Part shown: in pieces, positions 1,369 to 25,898 of the stretch
Position numbering within the stretch: the stretch's first letter is position 1
Layout of the letters: the number at the start of each line of letters is the position of its first letter
Virus record (IMG/VR): IMGVR_UViG_3300017651_000007
Coordinates: 1-26,025 of that record
DNA length: 26,025 nucleotides
Source: a virus
Taxonomy: Duplodnaviria > Caudoviricetes
Strand: one strand, 5' to 3'
The notes under the pieces: generated by a model
Database searches by the model: none
Seen by the model: only the letters and a program-made list of their open reading frames with translations
Told to the model about the DNA's origin: nothing
Program-made: the position numbers and the translations under genes

Positions 1369-2664
1369 CTAGTAGCGCTGGTCGCGCCAGACGAGCTTGC
1401 CGTCGATGTAACGGGCTAGTTCGGGTACTACAGTGCCGTCAGGCCAGACGATGGCGGTGCCAAAGCCGTTCTGCCAGTTGGGGAACTTCGTGTAGCCGAG
1501 GCCACCACGGATCATCGCCATCGTGCCGATCTCCATGCCGGTGACGGTGAAAGGAGTGCCGTCGATGGAGTGGATAGTCTTGTGCGTGAGTGCCTGACGG
1601 TGGGTGTGCGCCATCGCGAGGGAGTGACGCACCTCGTCTAGGTGAGCGAGGATGGACGCGCCTGCGTCCTTCTTCACGCGCTCGCCGTGCATGGCGGCGA
1701 ACTTGTCACTGACGGCGTAGTGAGCGTGGGTGTAGTTACCCTGCGGCTCGATTAGCTCAATGCCGAGCGAGTCGAGATGCAGTAGGTCACGAATGTCCCA
1801 TACATCGCGGAAGGGATCCTGGCCGGGGATGTCGGCCGGTCGCACGCCCCATAGCTTCGACACGTACTGAAGCATCATCCTGCGGATGCGCTCGTCGTGG
1901 TTGCCGAGGAGCTTCTTCCAGCGGGTAGAAGTGGATGCCTGCACGTAATCGCGCAGCATGAGGTAGCCAGAGTTGATCGACTCCTGAGCCGTGACGTGCC
2001 ACTCCGGGTTGGCCGGGTGACGCGACTGCTCAGGTAGGTCGATCGTGTCGCCCATGAGAACGCCCTCATCCGGGACGTTGTACTCCAACCACTGGCAGAA
2101 CTTGTCGTGGAGGTCGGGGTCCTGATAGGGTGCCTGCTGGCAGCCGACGAAGACGACGAGCTTGGCCTTGCGGTCTAGCTGTACGTGGAGGCGCTGAAGG
2201 CGGAAGGAGGGACCATCCACCGCAGGCATGACGAAGGCGTACGGCTTCTTCCGGGCGCAAATGATCTTTAGCTGGCGCATCTTGACGATGCGGTTGTCAC
2301 CGTACGCCTTGTCGGAGGTCATGGCGTCCCACTCGTTGATGATGAGACCGCCGTCGATGACCTCCCACTCCTCGGGGTCAAGGCCACGCTCGCGAAGTAG
2401 TTCCTCGGGCGTATTGAGAACGTCGCCGGTCACGGGGCGACCGATGATTGTCGCCTTGTCACCCTCGATGCGGAGACTTGGCCTCTCGGCGTTGGGCCGC
2501 TGCGCATTCCATCGACGTAGTGCCCGACGAATGGAGCGATCCGAAGTCGTTACCCCCTCCGCATTGAGGTTGCGGATAACCTCGGCATAGGTCAGACCTT
2601 GAGTAACCCACTCAAGGATCTTCTCCTGATGCGCGTCTAGCGGGGATGTCTGGGAATGGTTCAC
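1369..2664 (-). CDS. N-terminal HTH plus calcineurin-like metallophosphoesterase
   Basis: HTH-like segment (GLTYAEVIRNL...SDRSIRR). Phosphoesterase motifs GDTID, GNHD, HG and HTHR. Confidence 0.8.
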   Translation of the reverse strand: MNHSQTSPLDAHQEKILEWVTQGLTYAEVIRNLNAEGVTTSDRSIRRALRRWNAQRPNAERPSLRIEGDKATIIGRPVTGDVLNTPEELLRERGLDPEEWEVIDGGLIINEWDAMTSDKAYGDNRIVKMRQLKIICARKKPYAFVMPAVDGPSFRLQRLHVQLDRKAKLVVFVGCQQAPYQDPDLHDKFCQWLEYNVPDEGVLMGDTIDLPEQSRHPANPEWHVTAQESINSGYLMLRDYVQASTSTRWKKLLGNHDERIRRMMLQYVSKLWGVRPADIPGQDPFRDVWDIRDLLHLDSLGIELIEPQGNYTHAHYAVSDKFAAMHGERVKKDAGASILAHLDEVRHSLAMAHTHRQALTHKTIHSIDGTPFTVTGMEIGTMAMIRGGLGYTKFPNWQNGFGTAIVWPDGTVVPELARYIDGKLVWRDQRY

Positions 2665-11094: not shown

Positions 11095-13152
11095 TTAGAA
11101 GCCTCTTCGGCGCCCGCGCGTCCTGAAGCCCGAACGAGCCGGATTTTGTCCCAGGAACCGGAGATGGCCGTAAGCGCTGCCCCCGGGGCTCTGCTCGCCC
11201 TGTCGGCCTCCCTGATAGCCGCCGAAGAGGGGGTGCTTGCCGCCTAGAGCCGCTCCGCCGTGCCCGAGCGGGTATCCGCCCGGAGCGCCCATGCCGATCG
11301 GCTGAGACCCGAGCGTGGCCATCATTTGATCCCGGATACGGTTGGCCAGGAAGGACTCGGTGACCGTCATCACGCAGTCCGCCATGTCCTTCGTCTGCAC
11401 GGGGCCGATCGTCTGCCGATCGACTCGCGGAGTGAGGCCGGTGCTGATCTGCTGAAGGTACTTCAACTCTAGGGCGCAGTACGCGTTGTCCGGCGTATCC
11501 GACGGGGCATGCACGAGGTCGCGATAGAGACACGTGCGGAAGATCTCCGCTCGGTTCCAGTTGGTGGCTGCCGTCGCGGGCTTCTTGTAGACCTTCACGC
11601 CTCCGACGCCGCGCATGCGTAGCTCCTTGGTGAGCCACTCGATAGGCGCGTCAGAGTTGTATTGGTCCATCGTGATCTCGGTGGGGCGGAAGAGATCGAT
11701 GTACCCATAAACTTCCCGTAGAACGGTCTCCCACTCGATGACGCCGGACTCGAAGTTCTGCGGCTGCCAGCGCTTCACGATGTCGAACACGACGTGCTCT
11801 TCCGGATTGCCGTCGCGATCCGGGAACTGCTCGACGTGCCCGAGCGCGAAGCCGAAGCCAGCCGTCGTGGAGGATGGGTCGAGGTGCGCCCGGTACTCGT
11901 ACATGAAGCCATTGGGCTGGTTGAAGTTCGAGGCGACCGCAGCGTGCGAGCCATCGGGCATCGGGCGACCCTCGAACATGCGATCCACGGCCTTCGGGTC
12001 CAGGTAGGCGTCAATGATCTCGGAGAACTGGCCACGGCGCTCGACCTTGTACGTGTCGGGGTCCTGCTTCTCCTCGTCGCGCGCGAGCTTGATACCGATG
12101 CGATCGTCCTCGGAGTAGAAGTAGGATCCGTCCTCGTTCTTGCGCTCGGGATCCCAATCGGGGGACTGCGTGATGCACTTACGGGGACCCTTGTAGAGAG
12201 GCTCTTCCCACCAGCCTTCGAAGAGCGCCCAGGAGGGGAACTGGAAGGCCACCATATACGGGTTGAGCGGGACGGCCGGGTTGTCCTTCTCTACCGCCAT
12301 ACCCGCCTCGAAGCGCTCGAAGAAGCGGCCTAGCTTCGTGTACGGCGAGGAGTTGCAGAAGATCATCGCGGCCTTGCCGAACTGCGCGAGCGACGGGATG
12401 GCCGCGTCGTACACCTTCTCGGCGGAAGCGTCAGTCTCCTCGCCGACCTCCATGAACGCCATCTCGTCAAAGGCGATGGCCATCGTGGTCGAACCACGAA
12501 TGGTGGACGCGTTAGCGGCTAGGGCATTACCCCTAAGCTTGGAGATGTCGCGCCCGATCTTGTGGGACTTCCTACGGTGAGCGGCCATCTTCCGAAGGTC
12601 CGCCTCGGTAGCGACAGAGAACTCCTTCTCGTACAGCTTAGTGAGGTTCTGTCCGAACGCATGACACTCCGCAACAGTGGTCGAGAGGTCGGAGTACTGG
12701 AACTTGCGGGCCTGATCGAGTGAGGCGGCTACGCAGGAGAAATAGATCTGCTTTTCGGGGTCGATACCGTAGGCGGCGTTCGGATCCTCTAGCTGAAGAG
12801 TGTCGTACATCTTCTTGGCCATCGCGAGGCCAGTAACGAAGCCCTTCGAGCAACGGCGACCGCCGACCAGTACGACCTCTCGGAAGTGTGGGAAGCCCTC
12901 GTCGCGTAGGCCGTCGATGCGCTTGCGGATGTGAGGAGAAAGATTGATCTCTCCTCCGCGACCGCCCTTGATCCAATAATTGAGTGCGTCTTCCTCTCGG
13001 TTGGTTAGCTCCTCTAGGAAGATGAGCTTGAGGAGAAGCTTCTGTCGCGGGTAGAGCTTCTTGCCACAGTAGTCGGTTGACTCTGCGAACTCCTCAATGC
13101 TCACCTTCTTCGGGGCAAGCGAGTTCTCTAGCTGTGAGAGGAAGTCCGCCAT
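11095..13152 (-). CDS. terL: Terminase large subunit
   Basis: LYPRQ adenine-binding motif, Walker A-like GGRRCSKG, Walker B IAFDE, coupling motif NSS, and nuclease acidic residues (HLDPS, MDQYN, KDMAD). Confidence 0.9.
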   Translation of the reverse strand: MADFLSQLENSLAPKKVSIEEFAESTDYCGKKLYPRQKLLLKLIFLEELTNREEDALNYWIKGGRGGEINLSPHIRKRIDGLRDEGFPHFREVVLVGGRRCSKGFVTGLAMAKKMYDTLQLEDPNAAYGIDPEKQIYFSCVAASLDQARKFQYSDLSTTVAECHAFGQNLTKLYEKEFSVATEADLRKMAAHRRKSHKIGRDISKLRGNALAANASTIRGSTTMAIAFDEMAFMEVGEETDASAEKVYDAAIPSLAQFGKAAMIFCNSSPYTKLGRFFERFEAGMAVEKDNPAVPLNPYMVAFQFPSWALFEGWWEEPLYKGPRKCITQSPDWDPERKNEDGSYFYSEDDRIGIKLARDEEKQDPDTYKVERRGQFSEIIDAYLDPKAVDRMFEGRPMPDGSHAAVASNFNQPNGFMYEYRAHLDPSSTTAGFGFALGHVEQFPDRDGNPEEHVVFDIVKRWQPQNFESGVIEWETVLREVYGYIDLFRPTEITMDQYNSDAPIEWLTKELRMRGVGGVKVYKKPATAATNWNRAEIFRTCLYRDLVHAPSDTPDNAYCALELKYLQQISTGLTPRVDRQTIGPVQTKDMADCVMTVTESFLANRIRDQMMATLGSQPIGMGAPGGYPLGHGGAALGGKHPLFGGYQGGRQGEQSPGGSAYGHLRFLGQNPARSGFRTRGRRRGF

Positions 13153-16402: not shown

Positions 16403-16466
16403 TAGTCCCTCTGTCGCTGTGACGTACTCATCAGCAGTTACAGAGGAGGTCGCGCCCGTGAGATAG

Positions 16467-16539
16467 TGGCTCTAGCAGGACTCGAACCTGCGACCTTTCC
16501 GTTATGAGCGGACTGCGCTACCAACTGCGCCATAGAGCC
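16467..16539 (-). tRNA. tRNA-Met or tRNA-Ile2 (CAT)
   Basis: Acceptor GGCTCTA/TAGAGCC; loop CT-CAT-AA; TTCGAGT T-loop. Confidence 0.9.
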
Positions 16540-16544
16540 AAGAG

Positions 16545-16615
16545 AGGGGATGACGGGGCTCGAACCCGCGCCAGAAGCTTGGAAGGCTTCTGTGCTACCG
16601 CTACACCACATCCCC
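16545..16615 (-). tRNA. tRNA-Gly(TCC)
   Basis: GGGGATG/CATCCCC; loop CT-TCC-AA; U73. Confidence 0.92.
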
Positions 16616-16620
16616 GTGGT

Positions 16621-16824
16621 TCAGGTGAAGATACGGACGATCTGTTCGTGAGTGGCGCCGTGCTCGAAGTAACGACGCACGTCATGGTGGCTCAAGCGGA
16701 AACCATCCGTACCGCGAGCCTCAATCAGCTTCTCGGCATCCGTCTCCGAGAATCCAAGCGAAAGAAATGCTTCCTTCCGCCAGGCGGCGATCCTATCGCC
16801 GTTGAGATCTGTCGTACCTGCCAT
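16621..16824 (-). CDS. Hypothetical helical 67-aa protein
   Basis: Fills the gap between two tRNAs exactly; natural composition. Confidence 0.65.
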   Translation of the reverse strand: MAGTTDLNGDRIAAWRKEAFLSLGFSETDAEKLIEARGTDGFRLSHHDVRRYFEHGATHEQIVRIFT

Positions 16825-16828
16825 GGTA

Positions 16829-16900
16829 AGCTCCCTGTCGGAATCGAACCGACTTCTCAGGATTACAAGTCCAGTGCATCGCCTGCAATGCTTAGGGAGC
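16829..16900 (-). tRNA. tRNA-Thr(TGT)
   Basis: GCTCCCT/AGGGAGC; loop CT-TGT-AA. Confidence 0.88.
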
Positions 16901-16904
16901 AGAT

Positions 16905-16932
16905 GCTCCCTCGCCTATTGGGGCGAGGGAGC
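16905..16932 (-). terminator. Strong hairpin after the endolysin (terminator or 3'-end stabiliser)
   Basis: GCTCCCTCGCC-6 nt-GGCGAGGGAGC, 11 bp; no T-run. Confidence 0.5.
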
Positions 16933-16938
16933 GAGGTC

Positions 16939-17619
16939 TTATCCCGGGTAATCGACCAGGGCGAACCCGTACACGTCAGAGAGCGGGCGCTTGCGGGCGT
17001 ATACGCCTCCGCCGTTGCTCTGCGAGCCGCTGTTGCCCGACGAGGTGTTACCCTCGATTGTGTGAACGTAGTTGCCCTCAACCTTGACGACCATTCCGAC
17101 GTGAACGCCGGAACCGAAGAGCACGACGAGATCACCGCGTAGCACCTTCTTCGGATCCGTGGTCCAGCCTCGATACGGAGCGAGCTTGCGCTTCGCGTCC
17201 TGCTCGATGTAGTACACGGAGGCAATGCGGTAATCGACGCCCTTGACGCCGACATGGAGCAGCATGTTGCCGCAGAAGACGCCGCACCATGCCTGGCCTA
17301 CTAGCCAGGAACCTAGGCGCTCCTGCCATACCGTGATCCGGCCGCCCTTGTTCGAGTTCGCCGGGGTCTCCTTGACCTTGCCGTCGAAGCTCAGGGCGTA
17401 CTCGACAGCGCGCTGGCGAACGGGCTTCTTCGACTTGGCGCGGATCTGCGCGTCGCGGCGATCGACAAGACCAGCCGCTTCCTTGTAGAGCCGGAACCAC
17501 TTCGAGCGGAGGGCGTGTCCCTCCGGCTTAGTCTTGACGTAGCCGCGCCACTTCTTGTAACGATAGGACTCCCTACGCTTCCATAGAGCGCGCGACGCCT
17601 TTAGTGCTGAGAGAGTCAT
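16939..17619 (-). CDS. CHAP-domain endolysin or peptidoglycan amidase
   Basis: AWCGVF (catalytic Cys), GDLVV, HVGMV (His) and TIEGNT; very basic N-terminal helix. Confidence 0.88.
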   Translation of the reverse strand: MTLSALKASRALWKRRESYRYKKWRGYVKTKPEGHALRSKWFRLYKEAAGLVDRRDAQIRAKSKKPVRQRAVEYALSFDGKVKETPANSNKGGRITVWQERLGSWLVGQAWCGVFCGNMLLHVGVKGVDYRIASVYYIEQDAKRKLAPYRGWTTDPKKVLRGDLVVLFGSGVHVGMVVKVEGNYVHTIEGNTSSGNSGSQSNGGGVYARKRPLSDVYGFALVDYPG

Positions 17620-17656
17620 GTCACTCGTTACTTGGGCGACATGACGAGAAAGAAGG

Positions 17657-17944
17657 CCACACCCAATAGCCGGGATTTCGTATTAGCCGACCATCCGTCT
17701 CTGTCTCATGTCCTGAGACATGGGACAGGCCACGCCTTTACGCGGTGGCTGCCCTCAACCTAGACGGAGACGACTACCGTCCGAACGAGGTTGCATCCCT
17801 TCCCTAACGGCCGAGGTACGAACGAGCCGTAGCGAAACGCTACGTCTCTCCCTCCATTGTTACCCGGGCTCGCCAGTGTCGTCGGCGCGGGATGTCCCGA
17901 ACTTCCTCAAGAGTCGCGCGACTCCTGCGGTCGGCTAGGTGTGA
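17657..17944 (-). ncRNA. rnpB: RNase P RNA, compact type-A-like
   Basis: CR-I GAGGAAGUUCGGGA, CR-IV AGACGGAUG and CR-V ACGAAAUCCCGGCUAU. P1, P2, P3, the P4 pseudoknot, P5, the P6 pseudoknot, P7, P15 and P16 all pair in canonical order. Confidence 0.9.
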
Positions 17945-18072
17945 ACATCCTTGATAGCTTCCTTCCAGCACGTCATGCAGAGAAGGGCCTCGAAGAGGGA
18001 TGAGAAGAACGCTGGCCGCTGGTCGCAGCCGTAGCAGGCCGGTAGGCCGTTGCAGTCACCCTTCAGGGTCAT
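17935..18072 (-). CDS. Small CxxC...CxxC protein (45 aa)
   Basis: GGAGG close to the ATG at 18072; CYGC...CMTC; 3' end overlaps RNase P helix P1. Confidence 0.45.
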   Translation of the reverse strand: MTLKGDCNGLPACYGCDQRPAFFSSLFEALLCMTCWKEAIKDVHT

Positions 18073-18092
18073 GATCCTCCATCCGTTGATGA

Positions 18093-18165
18093 AGCCCACG
18101 CGGGGAGTCGAGCCCCGGACCTCTCCCTTACGAGGGGAGCGCTCTTCCATCTGAGCTACGCGGGC
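18093..18165 (-). tRNA. tRNA-Thr(CGT)
   Basis: GCCCGCG/CGTGGGC; loop CT-CGT-AA; variant T-loop CTCGACT. Confidence 0.88.
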
Positions 18166-18168
18166 AAG

Positions 18169-18289
18169 AGAGGCGAGTCGTGCGGAACAACACGCCTCTG
18201 GACGGTCCCTACCAGTACTTCCTTCGGGTACCTAACTGACGCTTTACCTACTGTCTCGTACGCGACTCCGCATTCAGGGGCGTCAGCTA
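18169..18289 (-). ncRNA. Candidate structured spacer RNA with loop-loop pairing
   Basis: TAGCTGACGC/GCGTCAGTTA stem and AGAGGCG/CGCCTCT hairpin; GCGGA/TCCGC complementarity between the two loops. Confidence 0.5.
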
Positions 18290-18362
18290 AGCCGTCAGCG
18301 GGAGTTGAACCCGCGACCCCTTCCTTACCACGGAAGTGCTCTGGCCACTGAGCTATGACGGC
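18290..18362 (-). tRNA. tRNA-Thr(GGT)
   Basis: GCCGTCA/TGACGGC; loop GT-GGT-AA. Confidence 0.9.
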
Positions 18363-18481
18363 GAGAGGCGCCCGGTAATGAACGGACGCCTGGTGATGCA
18401 GGTGCAGGGCGCCCGGCGGAAAGCGGGCGCCAGATCCAACTAGTTGCGCCAACCCATGCTGCACCTCCTCTACTCGAAGTA

Positions 18482-18553
18482 AGGGGCATACGGGAATCGA
18501 ACCCGTGTTTGCGACATGGCAAGCCGCCGTAATATCCGCTATACGAATGCCCC
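18482..18553 (-). tRNA. tRNA-Gly(GCC)
   Basis: GGGGCAT/ATGCCCC; loop TT-GCC-AT; U73. Confidence 0.88.
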
Positions 18554-18695
18554 AAACGCCTCAAACCAAGGGCCGAGGCGAGTGTCTATCCAGGGAGTTC
18601 CCATCCATCCCACCCTGGCCTACCGGCGTCACCCGGCTCCCTAACCACCAGCTACTAGACGTAGTAGACGACTACGGATTTCACTGGAGTCTTTG

Positions 18696-18890
18696 TCACC
18701 GCAAGGCGAATCGTCCAACTGACGCGAGGTCGAGACAGACGATGCACTGCTCGGCCTCACTCGGAGGCGGTACGCGCTTCGAGATCTTTGCCCCACAGAG
18801 AGCGTGATCGTCAGAGCCGCGTATATGCTTGACTCGTGCCCGAGTCGGAGTTTGGGACTCCTGCGGAGCCTCTAGTAGGACGGTGCTCAT
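18696..18890 (-). CDS. Small Zn-binding protein, DUF3039-like
   Basis: H...ALCG...CxxC spacing and MSTxxLE start resemble actinobacterial DUF3039 proteins. Confidence 0.55.
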   Translation of the reverse strand: MSTVLLEAPQESQTPTRARVKHIRGSDDHALCGAKISKRVPPPSEAEQCIVCLDLASVGRFALR

Positions 18891-18892
18891 AG

Positions 18893-18966
18893 CGCCCCCG
18901 GAGGGATTCGAACCCCCGACCTTGCGGGCCGAAACCGCACGCTCTAATCCGCTGAGCTACAAGGGC
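18893..18966 (-). tRNA. tRNA-Arg(TCG)
   Basis: Stem TGCGG/CCGCA; loop TT-TCG-GC. Confidence 0.9.
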
Positions 18967-19029
18967 TGGTACGCGTCGGGAGCGACCCTGACGCCGTGCA
19001 TGCGCTACGTCCACGGCTCGACGCGTAAG

Positions 19030-19101
19030 TACCCCCGGCAGGATTCGAACCTGCGACCTCCGGTACCGCAAACCGGTGCTCTTCCGCTGAGCTACAAGGG
19101 C
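19030..19101 (-). tRNA. tRNA-Arg(GCG)
   Basis: Stem CCGGT/ACCGG; loop TT-GCG-GT. Confidence 0.88.
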
Positions 19102-19150
19102 ATACAGGTGAACGTCCGTCGCCGGGCGCCACCTGAGGTAAGGGGTCCTG

Positions 19151-19750
19151 CTACTGGTCGAAGCGTCCTTCTAGCCAGTCCTTCACGAGACGAGCCTCGT
19201 ATACCGAGTCATCGCCCTCGGCGAGCAAATCGATGATCGCCGGATGCTCACGACGAAGCTGCTCTAGAAGACGAGATGCGTTTGTCCGTTCCTCGCGCGT
19301 AAGGTACTTTACGATCGAGACGTTTGGCGAGTCTCTATTATGGAGGTCACGGTGACAGTTGATACACACCGGAATAGTGCACTGAGACCGGGCGCCGACC
19401 TTAACGTAGTTGGATAGTTCGCGCATCATCCAACGGTTGACATAGTGGTGCCGTGTGGAGTCACCGGGTCGGCCGCAGAGGCGACACTCGGGCTGAACTT
19501 GTCTCTGTGCTCTGTACACCTTCTGGCGTTCAGCGACCTCGGCCGGTGTGGCGCCTTGGTCTAGAGCGTCGCGCAGCGCCTCTACGATCTGGCCCTGCGT
19601 GATGTGAGCGTCCAGCAAGTCATCTAGCTCAACACCTGTTATGGTGGTGAGAAGCTCCAACTGCTCGTGAGTGGCGAGGCGTCCGTTCTTGCCGGTGTCG
19701 TACCACCACTGCTCTCCATCAGGGAGAGTGATCTGTCGTGCTCGTGACAT
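19151..19750 (-). CDS. HNH-like (His-Me finger) endonuclease domain protein
   Basis: CRLC...TRHH...PVCINCHRDLH. Start at MSRARQ with a GAGAGG RBS; the longer ORF start lies inside tRNA-Glu. Confidence 0.7.
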   Translation of the reverse strand: MSRARQITLPDGEQWWYDTGKNGRLATHEQLELLTTITGVELDDLLDAHITQGQIVEALRDALDQGATPAEVAERQKVYRAQRQVQPECRLCGRPGDSTRHHYVNRWMMRELSNYVKVGARSQCTIPVCINCHRDLHNRDSPNVSIVKYLTREERTNASRLLEQLRREHPAIIDLLAEGDDSVYEARLVKDWLEGRFDQ

Positions 19751-19767
19751 GTGACCTCTCTCAGTAG

Positions 19768-19840
19768 TAGCCGGTACGGGATTCGAACCCGTGTCACCGC
19801 CTTGAGAGGGCGGCATCCTAGGCCCCTAGAAGAACCGGCC
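19768..19840 (-). tRNA. tRNA-Glu(CTC)
   Basis: GGCCGGT/ACCGGCT; loop CT-CTC-AA. Confidence 0.9.
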
Positions 19841-19849
19841 AGGGGAAGG

Positions 19850-19922
19850 GGTGACCAGAGGGAATCGAACCCTCCTCGCCGGACTCACAACCCGGAGTAA
19901 TAGCCGCTATACGATGGCCACC
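19850..19922 (-). tRNA. tRNA-His(GTG)
   Basis: Encoded G-1 opposite C73; loop TT-GTG-AG. Confidence 0.88.
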
Positions 19923-19937
19923 ATGTGTACTGCGTAG

Positions 19938-20010
19938 CTGCGGGCCAAGGTTTCGAACCTCGCTCTCCGGGGCCAGAACCCGGCGTCCACACCAACAGGA
20001 CCAACCCGCA
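19938..20010 (-). tRNA. tRNA-Gln(CTG)
   Basis: U1-A72; loop TT-CTG-GC. Confidence 0.88.
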
Positions 20011-20099
20011 AGGGAAGGAAGGCCAGCTATTGTCCGCTTAGCGTCCAGCGTCGCAATGCGCTCGTCCCCCGTGCACAGGGTTAGGACGACCTTCCGAAG

Positions 20100-20170
20100 T
20101 TGCGGGACTCGGATTCGAACCGAGACCAACGGGGTCAAAGCCCGTTCACCTGCCTTTAGTGTATCCCGCA
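20100..20170 (-). tRNA. tRNA-Gln(TTG)
   Basis: TGCGGGA/TCCCGCA; loop CT-TTG-AC. Confidence 0.85.
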
Positions 20171-20176
20171 ATGTGA

Positions 20177-20198
20177 GACGGGCGCCGAAGCGCCCGTC
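20177..20198 (-). terminator. UUCG-capped hairpin after nadV
   Basis: GACGGGCGC-TTCG-GCGCCCGTC, 9 bp; no T-run. Confidence 0.55.
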
Positions 20199-20201
20199 GT
20201 A

Positions 20202-21587
20202 CTACAGCGCTGCGTTACGACGTACTGTGTCGAAGTCCACCTCGTTGAGGAGGACGCCGTTCTCGAACACCGTGACTAGCTCGTCAGGGAGACCGGTGTC
20301 TCCGCCGACGGTGCGATATCCGTTCTCATCCTTGACCAACGCCAGGCGCCCGCGCTTCGACGCCTTGGAGGTGTCAAGGGGCTTCTTGTAGACCTGGTGC
20401 CATGCCCCGTCGCGCTCCTGCGCGCTGCACTTGAAGGCGAAGCGCTGCATGTCGCGATTGACCTTCTGGTGCAGACCGCCGCCCATGCCGAAGACCATGT
20501 TCTCGGCGCTGAAGCCCTCGGCCGCCAGACGACCGAGGATGCGGACGATGCCGTGAGAGTCGATGCCGTCGCCCCAAAGCACGCGAACGTGCGGGTCGAG
20601 TACCTTGAAGCCCTTGGAGTTGACCGCGCCGCCGAACGACTCGTAGAGTCGTCGCACGATCCACAGGGTCAGGCCCTCGGGCGTCTCGTGGTTCGGCGTA
20701 GTGGAGTCCGGACGCACGACGAATACGCCGTCGCGATCGAGGACTTGCTTGCGGTACGTCGTGCAGATGGCATCCACGAAGCGGTAGATGTCGTAGCTGT
20801 CGGCGACGACGGAGAGGATCCCGGTCGGGTGCTCGCGGAAGAGCTTGTCCACGACCTTCCATTCGCCCTCCTCGCCGAGGGCCGTCATCACGGAGTGCTC
20901 GGTGGCGGGCACCGAGAAGGCGAGACTCGTGATGTCGGCGCCGTAGTGGTTCACGGCGAAGAGCATCCCGAGGAGGGTATCCGTGCCCACCGAGTTCACG
21001 AGGTGTGCCGCTCCGGCAATGGAGGCAGACTCGTCGCTCGTGGAGCCTCGGTAGCCGAAGTCGTGGAGCATGAAGGGTAGGCCGTCGCGGCTGTCGGCCG
21101 TCATGTCAAGGAAGGCCCCGATCGAGTCGATGGTATGACGGCTGAGCGTCGCCACCGTACTCGGGTACCACACGTGCGTCAGGAGCGACTCCACGGCGTT
21201 GGTTAGCCAGTAGCATTCCGGACAGGTGTTCTCGACGGTCATCAAGACGTTGCCGGTCGGGACGACCGTGCCCTCCTGGACCGCCTTGATGCGCAGCGGC
21301 AGACAGCCGCCGTGCACGTCGATGATGTGGTTCCAACCGGCCGCGTTGAAGAGGCTTTCGTCGCCGAAGTGGTACTTTGCGACCAGCGCGGCCTCGGTCA
21401 CGTCGGCGGGGGTCACGACGACGCCTTCGAGCTTGCGAAGGATGGGCTGTAGGCCGAAGAACACGGTGTAGGGGAACTCGGCCCCCGTACGGCTCTCGAA
21501 GTAGGAGTAGACGCCGGTCGTGTCGTCCGGGTACTGCTTCCAGTGGTTGAGCTTGTAGCTGTCCGTCGCGAGGATGAGATTGGTCAT
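20202..21587 (-). CDS. nadV: Nicotinamide phosphoribosyltransferase (NAMPT)
   Basis: Motifs TDSYK.NH..QYP, WYPSTVAT, LHDFGYRG, VPATEHSVMT, SVVADSYD, RPDS and GMGGGL. Confidence 0.96.
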   Translation of the reverse strand: MTNLILATDSYKLNHWKQYPDDTTGVYSYFESRTGAEFPYTVFFGLQPILRKLEGVVVTPADVTEAALVAKYHFGDESLFNAAGWNHIIDVHGGCLPLRIKAVQEGTVVPTGNVLMTVENTCPECYWLTNAVESLLTHVWYPSTVATLSRHTIDSIGAFLDMTADSRDGLPFMLHDFGYRGSTSDESASIAGAAHLVNSVGTDTLLGMLFAVNHYGADITSLAFSVPATEHSVMTALGEEGEWKVVDKLFREHPTGILSVVADSYDIYRFVDAICTTYRKQVLDRDGVFVVRPDSTTPNHETPEGLTLWIVRRLYESFGGAVNSKGFKVLDPHVRVLWGDGIDSHGIVRILGRLAAEGFSAENMVFGMGGGLHQKVNRDMQRFAFKCSAQERDGAWHQVYKKPLDTSKASKRGRLALVKDENGYRTVGGDTGLPDELVTVFENGVLLNEVDFDTVRRNAAL

Positions 21588-22489
21588 CCGAGGAGCCTCC
21601 CACGAAGATAGACGAATAGTTCCTGGTGGACAGGGACAAGGGAGTCTTCCGCCAGCGCGTGCCAGTCGAACCAGCGAAGCTCGGCTATGTCAGATCCCGG
21701 CGTGGGCTTGCCGCTCAGGTGCGTAGCCAGGAAGAGCATCGTCTTGATCTTGTCCACCTCGCCCCGATAGCGCCAGTCATCCACGAGCATGGACGTGACG
21801 TACTTCGGATCGGTGATCTCGATGCCCGCCTCCTCCATCACCTCTCGGCGGGCGTCGGCCTCGTAAGTCGGCGACGTGGGCTCGGCGAAGCCGCCGATGA
21901 AGCGGAACTTATCCTCGTAGGGCTTGCGGCCGAGCAGCAGCTTCGACCCGTCCTCGTTGAGGATGGCCACATCGACGGTTGCATAGTTCGTCGGGAAGCG
22001 GCTGTAGGCGGCCCAGACGACGCCAGCGCGGAACTCGGGCGACGCCTTGACGGAGCGGGCGGAGATAGCCTTGCGCGTCTCCGAGCCGGAGACGAAGACC
22101 TCCTGGACAAGCTCCCGTGTGGGAAGGTTGCCGTGATAGCGACGGATGAACGAGTCGCGGCTGCCGTAGAGGACGACCGACTGCGCGGGCGTCGTCACAT
22201 CAGCGATCATCTCGTCCAGCCGCTTACTCCAAGCCACGTCGCTGGGGTGATCCTTCACGTAGAGAACGTTCACGTCGGGGAAGCGCTCCAGGATCATCTG
22301 CTTGCGCGCTTCGAAGTCGAGCGGATTCTCTCGCGTGACCATGACAGGCGAGAGCCCCAGGAAGAGGATCACCTTGCTGTGTGCATCACAGACGGTCCGG
22401 ATCAGGTCAATATGAGCCTGATGTAGCTCAGGGACCTGGAACCGACCGACAATCACTCCTACGTCGTAGGAGTCGGTCTTTACCTGCAT
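21584..22489 (-). CDS. natV: Bifunctional NMN adenylyltransferase / Nudix ADP-ribose hydrolase
   Basis: GRFQ..LHQAH (HxxH), NPL.F..R, SGSETR, and the Nudix box GGF-x9-ARREVMEEAG; ATGA overlap with nadV. Confidence 0.93.
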   Translation of the reverse strand: MQVKTDSYDVGVIVGRFQVPELHQAHIDLIRTVCDAHSKVILFLGLSPVMVTRENPLDFEARKQMILERFPDVNVLYVKDHPSDVAWSKRLDEMIADVTTPAQSVVLYGSRDSFIRRYHGNLPTRELVQEVFVSGSETRKAISARSVKASPEFRAGVVWAAYSRFPTNYATVDVAILNEDGSKLLLGRKPYEDKFRFIGGFAEPTSPTYEADARREVMEEAGIEITDPKYVTSMLVDDWRYRGEVDKIKTMLFLATHLSGKPTPGSDIAELRWFDWHALAEDSLVPVHQELFVYLRGRLLG

Positions 22490-22537
22490 GTATCTCCTTG
22501 CGATCTATCGATAAACGATCATGGGGGATGGGGGATA

Positions 22538-22617
22538 TAGCGGAGGTAGGATTCGAACCGTTTGAGACGACCTCCTGGTTATGAGCCAGGCGAGCTACCA
22601 GACTGCTCTACTCCGCG
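22538..22617 (-). tRNA. Initiator-like tRNA-Met(CAT) with an insertion in the T-stem
   Basis: CGCGGAG start, unpaired C1:U72, loop CT-CAT-AA; about 6 extra nt in the T-stem 5' strand. Confidence 0.8.
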
Positions 22618-22624
22618 TCGAAAG

Positions 22625-22706
22625 TGCCCACACTCGGACTCGAACCGAGACGGCGTAAGCCAACCGGGTTTGAGCCGGTCCTGTCTGCCAATTCCAGCAT
22701 GTAGGC
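22625..22706 (-). tRNA. tRNA-Leu(CAA)
   Basis: Class II variable arm; loop CT-CAA-AC. Confidence 0.92.
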
Positions 22707-22714
22707 GAAGTGAA

Positions 22715-22927
22715 TGAGAGCGCGGCCCTGGCTAAGGGGCATTACGGCGGGCGTCCACCCGATACATCCCGTGGCCTGCGGGACAACGGGCAACTACTGT
22801 CCGCCTTTTCTACGGGTTCAACCTTGAGCCCTCTAGCGCGCCGCCGTCTATTGCTTGGCTTGCCAAAGCCGAGCATCACCGGGCCTAGCAGCCTAGAGTC
22901 GGCCGTCGAAACCACCTCGTGCTCTCA
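22715..22927 (-). ncRNA. Candidate 213-nt multi-domain structured RNA
   Basis: Closing stem TGAGAGC/GCTCTCA, several internal helices and a potential pseudoknot; no convincing ORF. Confidence 0.6.
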
Positions 22928-22929
22928 AG

Positions 22930-23001
22930 TGCCGCCAAGGGGGATCGAACCCCTACTTCCAGCTTGAAAGGCTAGCGTGCTAACCACTACACTATGACGG
23001 C
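22930..23001 (-). tRNA. tRNA-Glu(TTC)
   Basis: GCCGTCA/TGGCGGC; loop CT-TTC-AA. Confidence 0.9.
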
Positions 23002-23137
23002 AGGGCGGGCGTAACCTCGATTGTTGGTTACCTTACGTCCGTCCCAGCTTAGACGGAACCCTCGCGAGGCTCGGGTACCCACGGTAGAGACAAGAACTCC
23101 AACGCCTACGTTCCTCTACCGCCTTCTACCTCGCTAG

Positions 23138-23212
23138 TGGTGCCACGAGGATTTGAACCTCGGACCTCCTCCGTATCAGAGAGGCGCTCTAACCAGACTG
23201 AGCTATGACACC
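23138..23212 (-). tRNA. tRNA-Ile(GAT)
   Basis: GGTGTCA/TGGCACC; loop CT-GAT-AC. Confidence 0.88.
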
Positions 23213-23309
23213 CTGGCGCCGGTATGGTCCTAGGAACCTCAATGGGCTAGACCAGCGCAACAGCCCCTCAGCGCGCATCCGGCCGGAATGGGCGCCTCAA
23301 CTTAGGGAG

Positions 23310-23383
23310 TGGGGAGTAGCGGATTCGAACCGCTGACCTTCGGTGTTTCAAGCCGACGCTCTACCAGGCTGAGCTAACTCCCC
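23310..23383 (-). tRNA. tRNA-Phe(GAA)
   Basis: GGGGAGT/ACTCCCC; loop TT-GAA-AC; C31:A39 mismatch. Confidence 0.85.
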
Positions 23384-23471
23384 GGGATCAGGTCAAGGGG
23401 ACCCTCTTCGTGAGGTGATGGGACATTCCCGGACCGCCACGCGTGCTCGCGACCCAAATCATGACCTGAAG

Positions 23472-23543
23472 TGGAGGACCGGGGAATCGAACCCCGAATT
23501 CCGCCTTGCAAGGGCGGCGTGTTCCCGTTAGCACTAGTCCCCC
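23472..23543 (-). tRNA. tRNA-Ala(TGC)
   Basis: G3:U70; loop CT-TGC-AA. Confidence 0.92.
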
Positions 23544-23599
23544 GGGCCGGGGCCGCCCGACGGCGGCCCCTCATACTCCTTCCGCCGATGGCGGATGAG

Positions 23600-23956
23600 C
23601 TAGAACTGCACCTCCCGCTTAGGGAGGACCCTATTTCTGCCCTCCCGCCAGAGGCGGCGAGGCAGCCACTTCTTCTTGACCTTCCAGCAGTGAATGCAGG
23701 TACGCACGCGGTAGGTGTCCGTGAACGTTACTCCATTCCACTCGGAAGTCTCCGAGATAGTCTCGGTGTACCACTCGTGAACGCGGTTGATCGCGCAGCG
23801 CTCCTTCTGTACGCGCTTGCGCTTCGAGCGACGCTTCCCGTTAGAAGGAGCGTCGTCGTCAACGGGCGGAGCCTTCTCAGGCGTGGCAATGGGACAGCAG
23901 CCGCAGGGAGCCATCTTCCTCTTGTCCCGGCGACGCGACCGGCGCTTGTAATGCAA
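23600..23956 (-). CDS. Highly basic Cys/His-containing protein (118 aa)
   Basis: AGGAG RBS before a TTG start; C..H...CxxC; fills the inter-tRNA gap and is followed by hairpins. Confidence 0.6.
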   Translation of the reverse strand: MHYKRRSRRRDKRKMAPCGCCPIATPEKAPPVDDDAPSNGKRRSKRKRVQKERCAINRVHEWYTETISETSEWNGVTFTDTYRVRTCIHCWKVKKKWLPRRLWREGRNRVLPKREVQF

Positions 23957-24018
23957 AGCAAGTCTCCTGTGTCAGGTTACCTACATTGCATGGCGCTCCT
24001 TTCGTCTGTGACCGACAG

Positions 24019-24106
24019 CGGAGAGACAGGGATTCGAACCCTGGGAGCCCTCATCGAGCCCACACGCGTTCCAGGCGTGCCCGTTCAACCACTCCGGCAC
24101 CTCTCC
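24019..24106 (-). tRNA. tRNA-Ser(GGA)
   Basis: Long variable arm; loop CT-GGA-AC; G73. Confidence 0.92.
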
Positions 24107-24193
24107 GAGCTAGCGTGGCGACTACCTACCTCTTGGACTAGAGGCGCAGGAGTTTGAGGCTTCGCCGCCTGCTTGCGTCTTGACCACGCTAAG

Positions 24194-24277
24194 CGGAGGC
24201 AGAGGGAATCGAACCCCCGACGCCGTTAGGCGCAGCCGGGTTCAAACCGGTGTCCTCGTCCATGCCGGACTACCTCC
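24194..24277 (-). tRNA. tRNA-Ser(TGA)
   Basis: Variable arm; loop TT-TGA-AC; G73. Confidence 0.88.
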
Positions 24278-24280
24278 GTA

Positions 24281-24352
24281 AGGCCCGAGCCGGAATCGAA
24301 CCGGCGTAAACCGCTTTGCAGGCGGTTGGCTAAGCCATTCACCCATCGGGCC
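24281..24352 (-). tRNA. tRNA-Cys(GCA)
   Basis: GGCCCGA/TCGGGCC; loop CT-GCA-AA; U73. Confidence 0.92.
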
Positions 24353-24355
24353 GGG

Positions 24356-24614
24356 TGCGAGACGAGGGATTCCACCCTCAACCCCTGAGTAGCGCGCGGG
24401 CGCACTTTCGGTCTGAAATGTCCGCCGCTACTCCTGAGAACCGTCCTCAAGCCGCTAAGCCGCACACGCTGGCTCCAGGCCGCTAAGCCCTTCGCCCATC
24501 CCTCGGCGCCCAGGTTGCTAACCCTGCCTCGGGACTTCTGGCTGTGCCGGGGTCCAGGACACCCGTTGGACGTGCGTTAGAGGCTTGCGCTACCTCTTAT
24601 TCCGCCAGTCTCAT
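24356..24614 (-). ncRNA. Candidate 259-nt tRNA-mimic RNA with a giant variable-region insertion
   Basis: Acceptor-like ATGAGAC/GTCTCGC-A, Leu-type D-arm TG-GCG-GAAT...AA-CGC, T-arm-like GAGGG-TGGAAT-CCCTC, and many internal hairpins. Confidence 0.6.
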
Positions 24615-24639
24615 AGGGACGATGGCCGTCGTCCCCAAG

Positions 24640-24712
24640 CTCCCCCGGTAGGATTCGAACCTACGACCTGTCGGTTAACAGCCGACCGCTCTGCGCACTG
24701 AGCTACAGGGGA
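24640..24712 (-). tRNA. tRNA-Asn(GTT)
   Basis: TCCCCTG/CGGGGGA; loop CT-GTT-AA; G73. Confidence 0.92.
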
Positions 24713-24788
24713 ATATGTGACGGCCCGTATCGTCGGCCGTCGCGCTGTATCCAGACGCCCCAGGTATATAGCTCTGAGGAACCGCTAG

Positions 24789-24863
24789 TGCCGCCCCAGG
24801 GATTCGAACCCTGAACCTCCCGATTAAGAGTCGGGTACTCTAATCCAATTGAGTTAGAGCGGC
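24789..24863 (-). tRNA. tRNA-Lys(CTT)
   Basis: GCCGCTC/GGGCGGC; loop CT-CTT-AA. Confidence 0.92.
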
Positions 24864-24869
24864 AGGATA

Positions 24870-25003
24870 ATCGCCCTTAGCGGGAACGAGAATCGGGCGA
24901 TCGGGTGGTCGGAGTCTTCTCGTTGGACCTAATGGCGCCTCAAGTCGAGAGCCCGCGACATCCTTGTCGTGAGGAGCTACCTCACGGTGGAGGACCAGTC
25001 CAC
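24870..25003 (-). ncRNA. Candidate pseudoknotted spacer RNA
   Basis: Three tandem hairpins, then a GCGGG/CCCGC domain whose internal hairpin loop (ATCGCCC) matches the 3' tail (GGGCGAT). Confidence 0.5.
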
Positions 25004-25006
25004 TAG

Positions 25007-25103
25007 CGGAAGGAGTGGGATTCGAACCCACGGACCAGCGGTCATTTAGCCGCCGACCTCTCGGTTAGCAACCGAGCGCATTCAGCCTCTCTGCCATCCT
25101 TCC
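25007..25103 (-). tRNA. tRNA-Ser(GCT)
   Basis: 97 nt with an extra-long variable arm; loop TT-GCT-AA. Confidence 0.92.
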
Positions 25104-25105
25104 AG

Positions 25106-25177
25106 CGCCCCCGGGAGGAATCGAACCTCCATCTCCCGCTTAGGAGGCGGATGCTCTATCCATTGAGCTACGAGGGC
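25106..25177 (-). tRNA. tRNA-Arg(CCT)
   Basis: GCCCTCG/CGGGGGC; loop CT-CCT-AA. Confidence 0.92.
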
Positions 25178-25268
25178 AAGCGGGGACTTTCACCCCGAAT
25201 CGGTGGCGTTCACCCGTACGGCCGCCTCTTGGCGATCCTCCGGCTCCCCATCGGGAGCGATGTAGTAG

Positions 25269-25706
25269 TGGAGGTGGCGGGAATCGAACCCGCGTCTTCC
25301 GTGCGCCTATCCAGGCAGTTCTCTAGCAGCTTGCCTCGTAAGGCCGAGGGCGCCCACCCCTTGTTACGAAGGGTGATTCCGGGCCGTCTTTCCAGCCTGT
25401 CTTGCACAACTAAGGGGACGGACAAGCTCCGAAACGCCTGTCGTCTTTCCACCACCCGAGTTCTGCGTCGTTCCCAGGAGGCACTCGGGAGCGCCGGGTT
25501 CGACCACGTATTCTGTTGCCCCGTTACGTGAGACGGCGCGCAGGATTACTAAGCCAGCGCGAGGTCGCGAGAAGCCGCCTCAGCAAGAATTGCCTCGGCC
25601 TCCGCGACGGGATCATACGTGCCAGTTATTGGCTTTGCCAGGTCAGGTGTGGCGACCGCTGCACTGCTCGGGACCGCTTCTCACAGAATCGAAGCCGGAC
25701 ACCCCC
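25269..25706 (-). ncRNA. ssrA: tmRNA
   Basis: 5' GGGGGTGTCCGGCTTCGA; 3' GACGCGGGTTCGATTCCCGCCACCTCCA; G3:U70; resume context ATAACT-GGC; tag frame ends LALA-TAG-TAA. Confidence 0.93.
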
Positions 25707-25824
25707 ATGTGAGGCAGCTACATCCCCGGCGAGGGGACCGCTTACCTCGTTTGATAGGGCTAGACCACGCGCTTCCCACCCCGGTTGGTTACGGGCCAAA
25801 GCCTTGTCCGTCTGCCTATCAAAG

Positions 25825-25898
25825 TGCGCCTTGAGGGAGTCGAGCCCCCGACCTCTCGCATGTCACGCGAGCGCTCTAACCACCTGAGCTAAAGGCGC
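25825..25898 (-). tRNA. tRNA-Val(GAC)
   Basis: GCGCCTT/AAGGCGC; loop GT-GAC-AT; variant T-loop CTCGACT. Confidence 0.9.

What the first reader, a model, noticed from the sequence alone, without database searches (positions are those of the whole stretch)
17657..17944. Phage-encoded compact RNase P ribozyme near the downstream end of the tRNA array
Seen (minus strand): P1 CACACCUA (17943-36) with UGGGUGUG (17665-58); P2 GCCGACC (17935-29) with GGUCGGC (17692-86); a P3 hairpin (17909-26); CR-I GAGGAAGUUCGGGA (17908-895) pairing with UCCCGGCU (17675-68) to form P4; P5 CAUCCC/GGGAUG; P6 pseudoknot GACGAC (17883-78) with GUCGUC (17774-69); P7 CUGGCG/CGUUAG; P15 CCUC/GAGG with an L15 GGU; P16 GGACGG/CCGUCU; CR-IV AGACGGAUG; CR-V ACGAAAUCCCGGCUAU. 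Established: this is the topology of the bacterial type-A RNase P catalytic domain, normally a host housekeeping RNA. Inference: the phage carries its own tRNA 5'-maturing ribozyme for 27+ tRNAs and its tmRNA, borrowing host RnpA or working without protein, since no rnpA is visible here. I cannot tell from the sequence whether such phage RNAs are already catalogued.
Basis: partly seen in the sequence, partly recalled or inferred. Interest (0 to 1): 0.95.

Follow-up and report, generated by a model that had tools for sequence, protein, structure and literature searches.

The report
Phage-encoded slimmed-down RNase P ribozyme
An uncultured phage carries, inside its own cluster of tRNA genes, a remodelled copy of RNase P RNA (the normally cellular ribozyme that trims the front end of new tRNAs) that keeps the catalytic half, has lost most of the tRNA-reading half, and belongs to a widespread virus family of such RNAs that standard annotation misses.

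Summary
Window 17943-17658 (minus strand) is a 286-nt RNase P RNA homologue in the tRNA/tmRNA array of a tailed phage. Rfam misses it even at E<=10. It is identified through relatives:
- 72 of 79 viral loci with the same 3' signature carry the matching 5' strand.
- 16 of 17 tested loci hit Rfam RNase P, 7 above the cut-off.
- A model built without the window scores it 74.7 bits.
- Against its nearest relative, 7 of 46 pairs change on both sides and none break.
The catalytic-domain residues are kept. CR-II/III and P8/P9/P13/P14 are gone. P4 has lost one A-U pair and gained one at its other end, a family signature almost absent from cellular genomes (3 of 80 loci, all second copies). No rnpA was found in 40 viral records. 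Most likely it matures phage tRNAs using host RnpA; activity is untested. Cultured phage DLP6 has an unannotated copy. This scan noted the same kind on other DNA before; I found no paper.

The parts
17658..17943 (-). RNase P RNA gene, 286 nt, ends defined by P1
   Evidence: held-out model R1 74.7 bits, E 2.8e-21, over 17936-17666; helices verified
17936..17943 (-). P1 5' strand (pairs with 17665-17658)
   Evidence: one both-side change against L001
17929..17935 (-). P2 5' strand (pairs with 17692-17686), followed by GC at 17928-17927 (E. coli G19 C20)
   Evidence: two both-side changes against L001; P2 100% paired in 18 relatives
17909..17926 (-). P3 hairpin, 7 bp
   Evidence: unrelated shorter hairpin at the same place in L001
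17895..17908 (-). CR-I / P4 5' strand; A67, G68 and bulged U69 equivalents at 17903, 17902, 17901; one A fewer than E. coli
   Evidence: mapped to E. coli M1 RNA fetched
17889..17894 (-). P5 5' strand (pairs with 17799-17794)
   Evidence: two both-side changes against L001; family 99.4% paired vs 48.1% shuffled, n=53
17878..17883 (-). P6 pseudoknot 5' strand (pairs with 17774-17769 in the P16 loop)
   Evidence: 6 WC pairs; family mean 5.7 bp vs 3.8 shuffled, n=52; absent in L001 and L012
17804..17876 (-). reduced specificity domain: P7-like stem 17876-17871/17809-17804, stalk 17854-17851/17816-17813, purine-rich 5' and T-loop-like 3' internal loop, capping hairpin 17844-17828; no CR-II/CR-III, P8/P9, P13/P14
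   Evidence: stalk and loop motifs recur in the family alignment; the T-loop reading is inference
17791..17793 (-). J5/15 CAA (E. coli C247 A248 A249)
17753..17790 (-). P15 (17790-17787/17756-17753), L15 with GGU at 17760-17758 (G292 G293 U294), P16 hairpin 17782-17762, then GC at 17752-17751 (G300 C301)
   Evidence: family P15 96.9% paired vs 58.9% shuffled, n=53
17729..17749 (-). P18 hairpin
   Evidence: one both-side change against L001
17701..17728 (-). extra hairpin after P18
   Evidence: outer 4 bp identical in L001, inner part replaced by a different self-complementary stretch
17693..17700 (-). CR-IV (J18/2)
   Evidence: A328, G329, A330, A334, U335 equivalents
17666..17681 (-). CR-V and P4 3' strand (17675-17668): one U fewer at the distal end, one extra pair at the proximal end
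   Evidence: extra pair Watson-Crick in 55 of 56 family sequences (A-U 38, G-C 17) vs 32 shuffled
17935..18072 (-). 45-aa Cys-rich ORF whose stop codon lies in the P1 5' strand; absent in L001
   Evidence: no Pfam family
16466..25898 (-). tRNA array: 26 tRNA genes, 23 upstream and 3 downstream of the RNA; none of 23 scored encodes CCA
25266..25706 (-). tmRNA
   Evidence: RF00023 47.3 bits
16939..17619 (-). endolysin-like gene directly downstream
   Evidence: PHROG endolysin families, weak CHAP
11095..13152 (-). terminase large subunit (phage marker)
   Evidence: phrog_2; about 32% to E3, Gordonia and cluster C phages
2664..4886 (-). portal protein (phage marker)
   Evidence: phrog_2833 E 1e-162

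Best explanation
A phage-encoded, catalytically competent RNase P RNA derived from bacterial type A. It is co-transcribed with the tRNA array and cut out of the precursor. It folds the P1/P4/P5, P2/P3 and P15/P16/P6 catalytic domain, binds the host's RnpA protein, and cuts 5' leaders from the phage's own pre-tRNAs and pre-tmRNA, supplementing or replacing host RNase P during infection. Because the tRNA-elbow-reading module is largely gone, recognition would rest on the acceptor stem, the L15 GGU / tRNA 3' end pairing, A248 and the protein-bound leader. SHOWN: homology, conserved structure under selection, retained active-site residues, viral location, link to tRNA arrays, absence of a recognisable viral rnpA. 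INFERRED: transcription, RnpA binding, cleavage, substrates, benefit to the phage.
For: Held-out model 74.7 bits, next best 8.7 in 70 kb; the same model also hits E. coli rnpB at 29.8 bits, E 7e-8. 16 of 17 chosen family loci hit Rfam RNase P at E<=0.01, from 255 to 28 bits, 7 above the gathering score; L010 189 bits. Window vs L001: 7 of 46 pairs changed on both sides, 0 on one side, 0 broken. Motif-anchored covariation in P5, P15 and the extra P4 pair and P6; 94% paired and 21 of 31 pairs with both-side changes, against 26-44% for slid controls. A67/G68/U69, A248, G292-U294, CR-IV and A351/A352 equivalents are present; their roles are given in PMC11143913. Isolated C-domains are active with and without the protein, with lower affinity (PMC4919922, PMC11143913). 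60 of 72 viral loci have a tRNA within 2 kb. No PF00825 in 40 of 40 records, 13 of them >=90% complete; control 10 of 14. 13 of 21 records carry a nucleotidyltransferase head domain of the CCA-adding type, including the nearest relative.
Against: No Rfam hit for the window RNA at E<=10 on 801 or 311 nt. CR-II and CR-III, called universal in PMC4919922, are missing, and P4 differs in register from E. coli. In E. coli, deleting S-domain residues 94-204 abolished cleavage of one pre-tRNA, and loss of P18 lowered the rate more than 3000-fold; P18's partner P8 is absent here (PMC11143913). The window's tRNA genes do not encode the CCA that L15 pairs with (0 of 23). The RNA is dispensable for related phages: absent from G044 (87% complete), E3 and Pinkcreek. 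12 of 72 viral loci have no tRNA within 2 kb. The one earlier viral RNase P-like RNA, from orthopoxviruses, was inactive in vitro (PMC3001073). The family was collected with patterns taken from the window's CR-I/IV/V, so those motifs match by construction.
Confidence: 0.66

Rival explanations
1. Same fold, different job: the RNA binds host RnpA and either sequesters it as a decoy or redirects it to non-tRNA substrates (phage polycistronic RNA, tmRNA, host hairpin RNAs), which need no elbow-reading domain.
For: The S-domain is repeatedly eroded, down to none in L095. An E. coli S-domain deletion still cuts pre-4.5S RNA with protein but not one pre-tRNA. A decoy role was proposed for the orthopoxvirus RNA. 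12 of 72 loci lack nearby tRNAs.
Against: 60 of 72 loci lie beside tRNA genes and many lie between them. A248 and the L15 GGU, which are substrate contacts, are kept. A phage that makes 26+ tRNAs gains little from disabling RNase P.
Confidence: 0.14
2. The RNA works without host RnpA: alone, or with a phage protein unrelated to RnpA that stands in for the protein and the lost S-domain.
For: No rnpA in 40 of 40 records or in DLP6. The window's RNA has long, G+C-rich P5, P6, P18 and an extra hairpin. The P4 shift is family-wide and could reflect a different partner.
Against: No protein family recurs near the RNA in more than 7 of 57 loci, and the top such cluster is tRNA read-through (only +/-2 kb examined). 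The P2/P3/CR-IV/CR-V surface that RnpA binds (recalled from the T. maritima structure, no call) is conserved. RNA-alone activity normally needs high Mg2+ (recalled).
Confidence: 0.12
3. A non-functional relic of a captured host rnpB that is decaying in the phage genome.
For: Fails Rfam; large losses; patchy distribution among relatives; some family members are interrupted by endonuclease ORFs.
Against: 7 both-side changes and no broken pair against L001; the same P4 signature and covarying helices across 57 clusters of very different phages; losses spare the catalytic domain.
Confidence: 0.05
4. Chance resemblance in a G+C-rich spacer, or an unrelated structured RNA.
For: No Rfam RNase P hit for this sequence; the MFE fold differs from the RNase P fold.
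Confidence: 0.02

Closest known systems
Bacterial type A RNase P RNA (E. coli M1 RNA / rnpB; Rfam RF00010)
   Same: P1-P5, P6 pseudoknot, P15/P16, P18, CR-I, CR-IV, CR-V, bulged U69, A248 and L15 GGU, mapped on the fetched E. coli gene; relatives with the same P4 signature score up to 255 bits.
   Different: On a phage; 286 vs 377 nt; no CR-II/CR-III, P8/P9, P13/P14, P17; P4 lacks the A66-U360 pair and has an extra pair next to P5; an extra hairpin after P18; no Rfam hit; no rnpA alongside.
Thermoproteaceae (type T, Pyrobaculum) RNase P RNA
   Same: Natural loss of most of the specificity domain (PMC12974513 passage).
   Different: Archaeal, cellular and dependent on archaeal proteins (recalled; the primary paper was not held). 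The phage RNA keeps bacterial P18 and grades into bacterial class A, so the reduction is convergent. No Rfam type T hit.
Orthopoxvirus RNase P-like RNA (camelpox)
   Same: A viral RNA proposed to resemble RNase P RNA (PMC3001073 passage).
   Different: Only some structural similarity, no pre-tRNA processing in vitro, eukaryotic virus, no tRNA-array context in the passage read. The phage RNAs have the full catalytic core and Rfam-level homologues.
Theta ribozymes of gut phages (PMC10879173)
   Same: Phage ribozymes tied to phage tRNA genes.
   Different: Small HDV-like self-cleaving RNAs proposed for 3'-trailer removal in cis; that paper treats 5' maturation as done by the usual RNase P.

Membership tests
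RNase P RNA superfamily (catalytic domain) | CR-I/CR-V forming P4 with bulged U and A67/G68 | tested here: met
   17903-17901 and 17675-17668; register shifted by one pair relative to E. coli
RNase P RNA superfamily (catalytic domain) | CR-IV followed by the P2 3' strand; P2 closes with the 5' strand before a conserved GC | tested here: met
RNase P RNA superfamily (catalytic domain) | P5, J5/15 CAA (A248), P15 | tested here: met
RNase P RNA superfamily (catalytic domain) | Mg2+-dependent cleavage of pre-tRNA 5' leaders at +1 | not testable with these tools
   needs in vitro assay
Bacterial type A RNase P RNA (RF00010) | Rfam gathering score of 100 bits | tested here: not met
   no hit at E<=10; 7 of 17 relatives pass
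Bacterial type A RNase P RNA (RF00010) | CR-II and CR-III interlocked T-loops, P8/P9, P13/P14 | tested here: not met
   73-nt reduced domain without the E. coli CR-II/III motifs
Bacterial type A RNase P RNA (RF00010) | P6 pseudoknot to the P16/P17 loop | tested here: met
   6 WC pairs; covaries in the family but absent in L001 and L012
Bacterial type A RNase P RNA (RF00010) | L15 GGU for the RCCA interaction | tested here: met
   17760-17758; the 5' side of L15 is non-canonical
Bacterial type A RNase P RNA (RF00010) | P18 docking on P8 | tested here: inconclusive
   P18 present and covarying, but its loop is not a cleanly closed GNRA and no P8 is evident
Bacterial type A RNase P RNA (RF00010) | Works with RnpA encoded in the same genome | tested here: not met
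   PF00825 in 0 of 40 and 0 of 4 records; the window is only 16% of its genome; use of the host protein is untested
Type T (Thermoproteaceae) RNase P RNA | Loss of most of the S-domain | tested here: met
Type T (Thermoproteaceae) RNase P RNA | Archaeal origin and Rfam match | tested here: not met
   no hit; relatives match RF00010 in 15 of 16 hits
Viral shifted-P4 RNase P RNAs (defined here, model R1) | Shortened CR-I with U-G after the bulge, extra proximal P4 pair, shortened distal end | tested here: met
   partly by construction of the search patterns
Viral shifted-P4 RNase P RNAs (defined here, model R1) | Significant score with a model not trained on it | tested here: met
   74.7 bits

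The most novel reading that the evidence does not exclude
Tailed phages of unrelated hosts share one old, virus-specific lineage of RNase P ribozymes, marked by a re-registered P4 active-site helix. The lineage has shed the tRNA-elbow ruler step by step, from full class A to about 150 nt, yet stays active in the cell. It lets the phage mature its tightly packed and, in this branch, CCA-less tRNAs independently of the host's RNase P RNA. It would be a natural series of minimal RNase P enzymes and, as far as my searches reach, the first working viral RNase P.
Probability: 0.45. Interest if true: 0.92.

Novelty: new variant of a known kind. Interest (0 to 1): 0.82.

Why it matters
RNase P RNA is one of the two universal ribozymes and is treated as a cellular gene; phage tRNAs are assumed to be trimmed by the host enzyme. 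A conserved viral family changes that picture and extends what large phages bring for translation (tRNAs, tmRNA, CCA-adding enzyme, now the 5' nuclease). The natural deletion series and the altered P4 make an old question directly testable: what is the smallest RNase P RNA that works in vivo, and what does the specificity domain add. A cultured phage (DLP6) carries an unannotated copy, so genetics is possible now. Short members fall below Rfam's cut-off or vanish altogether, so they are invisible to routine annotation.

Tried and rejected
Rfam on the window at gathering and at E<=10 on 801 and 311 nt: no RNase P hit. blastn of the window RNA against named phages: only a 32-nt chance match. L010 and L049 queries found no phage copy (one Salmonella rnpB in a genome contig). 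L001 against plasmids: nothing. A first narrow 3' pattern found 0 viral loci, and a short-spacing pattern only re-found 4 contigs. L016 and L028, L030, L062 are rejected as chance motif matches (no R1 hit, or 16-21 bits over the motif alone). Alignment A1 mis-registered P1/P2 and was not used. My first P2/P5 tallies chose the register by pairing and are circular; P5 was redone with motif-only anchors. The P2 counts still rest on rows trimmed at a P2 start chosen by pairing. One search had a regex slip and was redone. A neighbouring cofactor gene was sought and not found. Promoter and terminator scan was at chance level. RNA runs: no RNA holder listed, which is no evidence. The idea that L15 co-adapts to the C74-U75 tRNA ends was not supported: the L15 GGU is unchanged in loci whose tRNA genes read C74-A75 (L041, 16 of 20) or C74-G75 (L168, 7 of 15). 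The antisense 72-aa ORF 17720-17938 has no family match. No tree was built, so a single origin is inferred from the shared signature only.

Full report
1. OBSERVATION. The 301-nt strand folds more stably than 100 of 100 shuffles (z -3.65), although its MFE structure is not the RNase P fold. Rfam gives no RNase P match in the window at gathering, on 801 nt at E<=10 or on 311 nt at E<=10. The identification therefore had to come from relatives.

2. CONTEXT. The window is a 26-kb fragment of a virus record, 16% complete. It encodes a terminase, a portal protein, an endolysin-like protein, NAMPT and a NUDIX/cytidyltransferase. The closest named terminases are about 32% identical, from Rhodococcus phage E3, Gordonia phages and cluster C mycobacteriophages. 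An actinobacterial host is an inference from this and from an Rpf-type transglycosylase in the nearest relative. ARAGORN and Rfam each tRNAs, 26 in union, plus a tmRNA, all on the minus strand; 23 lie upstream of the RNA and 3 downstream.

3. NEAREST RELATIVE. L001 (terminase 87% identical; record G001, a 95% complete provirus) has the RNA at the same place in a largely collinear tRNA array (nhmmer E 3e-21), a few bases behind tRNA-Thr(CGU). Over 46 pairs in P1, P2, P4, P5, the S-stalk, P15, P18 and the extra hairpin, 7 differ on both sides, 0 on one side, and 0 are broken. One of the seven is in P4 itself. P3, P6, P7, P12 and P16 could not be aligned between the two and are not in this count. 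G001 encodes a CCA-adding-type nucleotidyltransferase domain (101 ORFs of 150 aa or more scanned) and no RnpA.

4. FAMILY. A CR-I...CR-V pattern gave 14 viral loci, 13 of which read as RNase P RNAs. A 3'-only pattern (CR-IV to CR-V with the window's P4 end) gave 79 viral loci. 72 of the 79 have the matching CR-I upstream, which was not in the pattern; 60 of the 72 have a tRNA within 2 kb and 39 have five or more. Four of the other seven still score 29-99 bits with my model; three are chance. 77 extracted sequences collapse to 57 clusters with CR-I-to-CR-V spans of 94 to 795 nt. I gave Rfam 17 loci, picked with a bias to long forms: 16 hit RNase P models at E<=0.01, from 255 bits (L088) to 28 bits (L027), 7 above gathering. 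Of 14 other sources scanned at gathering only L010 passed, at 189 bits. So full class-A RNAs and Rfam-invisible short ones share one signature.

5. HELD-OUT TEST. Model R1 was built from 18 members without the window and L001. It scores the window 74.7 bits (E 2.8e-21) and L001 80.2; the next best score in 70 kb is 8.7. It also finds E. coli rnpB (29.8 bits). Caveat: the training set was gathered with patterns taken from the window, so CR-I/IV/V agree by construction. The CAA, GGU and GC linkers, the S-stalk and the pairing in P2, P5 and P15 do not.

6. COVARIATION. With registers fixed by sequence motifs alone, P5 is 99.4% paired against 48.1% in shuffles (n=53 of 56; L082 dropped first, three lacked the anchor; the anchor list included the L15 variants of the window and L001). 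P15 is 96.9% against 58.9%, and the extra P4 pair is Watson-Crick in 55 of 56 against 32. P6 averages 5.7 bp within a sequence against 3.8 between sequences (n=52, five rows left out). On alignment A2, 94% of cells pair and 21 of 31 pairs change on both sides, against 26-44% for slid controls. Relatedness inflates shuffle tests, but several pairs show three or four pair types. DLP6 carries a further both-side change in P4.

7. ANATOMY AGAINST E. COLI (gene fetched; numbering). Kept: G19/C20, A67/G68/bulged U69, C247/A248/A249, G292/G293/U294, G300/C301, CR-IV, A347/C348, A351/A352, P6, P18. Changed: P4 lacks the A66-U360 pair and gains a pair next to P5; C70 is U (U-G pair); A349/G350 are swapped in the window only; the 5' side of L15 is atypical; there is an extra hairpin after P18. 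Lost: CR-II, CR-III, P8/P9, P13/P14, P17. What remains of the S-domain is a stem, a short stalk, an internal loop with a T-loop-like 3' strand (inference) and a variable hairpin that tolerates large inserts in relatives. The window has P6, whereas its nearest relatives L001 and L012 have GNRA-type hairpins at those places.

8. VIRAL RESTRICTION. The 3' pattern over 185,579 prokaryotic genomes gave 83 hits, close to my rough chance estimate of about 70; of 80 examined only 3 are family RNAs. All three lie among tRNA genes on MAG contigs whose genomes have a separate canonical rnpB. The exact pattern misses variants such as L001, so this is a lower bound on both sides. PF00825 (RnpA) is absent from 40 of 40 family-bearing viral records, 13 of them at least 90% complete, with the control ringing in 10 of 14 genomes. 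A divergent RnpA could be missed. The RNA is accessory: R1 finds none in G044 (terminase 58%, 87% complete), E3 or Pinkcreek. Stenotrophomonas phage DLP6 has a 126-bit copy in an unannotated gap before tRNA-Arg.

9. MECHANISM. Established (passages of PMC4919922 and PMC11143913): P4 with bulged U69 binds catalytic metal, A248 stacks at the cleavage site, L15 GGU pairs with the tRNA 3' end, and isolated C-domains cut pre-tRNA with and without protein at lower affinity. Shown here: those elements are kept under selection. Inferred: the RNA is released from the array transcript, takes host RnpA and matures phage tRNAs and tmRNA (0.66). None of 23 scored window tRNA genes encodes CCA and 17 read C74-U75 (p 6e-16 against local dinucleotide frequency); the same holds in L001 (0 of 31; 19). 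Either R73-C74-U75 pairs with the L15 GGU through a wobble, or 3' trimming and CCA addition come first. The unchanged L15 in loci with other tRNA ends favours the second. Rivals: decoy or non-tRNA substrates (0.14), protein-free or phage-protein-assisted (0.12), relic (0.05), chance (0.02).

10. LITERATURE. Ten full-text searches listed no paper on phage-encoded RNase P RNA; I judged most from listings and abstract starts. Term passages read: PMC11143913, PMC12974513, PMC4919922, PMC10879173, PMC3001073 (the inactive orthopoxvirus RNA), PMC7162821 (0 mentions in the main text), PMC6409571 (0 mentions), and two 2026 bioRxiv preprints (59, 60; RNase P only as a known family). The DLP6 paper PMC5349666 was seen as a listing only (0 occurrences). 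The Pyrobaculum paper was not held. I read no supplements, and most subscription papers are outside the library. Long members pass Rfam's cut-off, so they may already be listed in annotation tables that I could not see.

11. EARLIER SCAN NOTES. The scan holds 81 notes in at least 68 genomes with these words, two on a prophage sharing a few short words with this array, possibly L001's. They are unchecked AI notes, and two are marked 'part of it fell' without detail. My family analysis came before I saw them. One note prompted the search for a cultured carrier.

12. VERDICT. A real, conserved, virus-associated variant of RNase P RNA. It works like bacterial type A by anatomy but is not a formal RF00010 member.

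Noticed in passing
L006 3123-3202 (-); also L031, L034, L036, L046, L094: A tRNA (Rfam 42.8 bits) sits inside the RNase P RNA of L006, as the capping hairpin of the reduced S-domain; the other loci have tRNA- or tmRNA-like inserts at the same place. Processing of the insert could give a two-piece RNase P RNA.
   Followed up: no
L038 2060-2692 (-); L065 2141-2533 (-): Endonuclease ORFs inside the RNase P RNA: a 210-aa GIY-YIG protein and a 130-aa ORF with an HNH-like Cys/His pattern but no Pfam hit at cut-off. L065 still scores 118 bits on RF00010.
   Followed up: partly
L095 1993-2141 (-): About 150-nt member with no S-domain at all, between tRNA genes; RF00373 39.9 bits, R1 83.5 bits.
   Followed up: partly
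L012 about 3000-3250 (+); L056; L076; L001 4480-4620: P6 seems replaced by a GNRA hairpin after P5; L012 has an 11-nt-receptor-like motif in P16 (motif recalled, no call). Possible swap of a pseudoknot for a tetraloop-receptor contact.
   Followed up: no
window 16466-25898 (-); L001; L012: tRNA genes lack CCA and mostly read R73-C74-U75 (17 of 23); five with U73 or A73 read U74-A75.
   Followed up: partly
window 18072-17935 (-): 45-aa ORF with two Cys pairs and a good ribosome-binding site, inserted between tRNA-Thr(CGU) and the RNA; its stop codon overlaps P1.
   Followed up: partly
L185 10926-15530 (-) (record G001): CCA-adding-type nucleotidyltransferase domains at the C-terminus of a 1534-aa protein; open frames of 1165 and 1510 aa hold the same domain in G003 and G008.
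   Followed up: no
window 20202-22489 (-): NAMPT and cytidyltransferase-NUDIX genes (NAD salvage pair) inside the tRNA array.
   Followed up: no
window 25266-25706 (-): tmRNA of 441 nt, just at Rfam's cut-off and missed by ARAGORN; the L001 copy has an unusually long predicted tag.
   Followed up: no
L135, L168, L174: Family RNAs on tRNA-array contigs inside three MAGs that have their own canonical rnpB; probably phage or mobile-element contigs (not checked for viral genes).
   Followed up: partly
window 19151-19816 (-); L001 3420-4016; L072: A 221-aa protein with a C-terminal HNH-like Cys/His motif, shared by the window, L001 and L072 at a similar place upstream of the RNA; no family hit.
   Followed up: no
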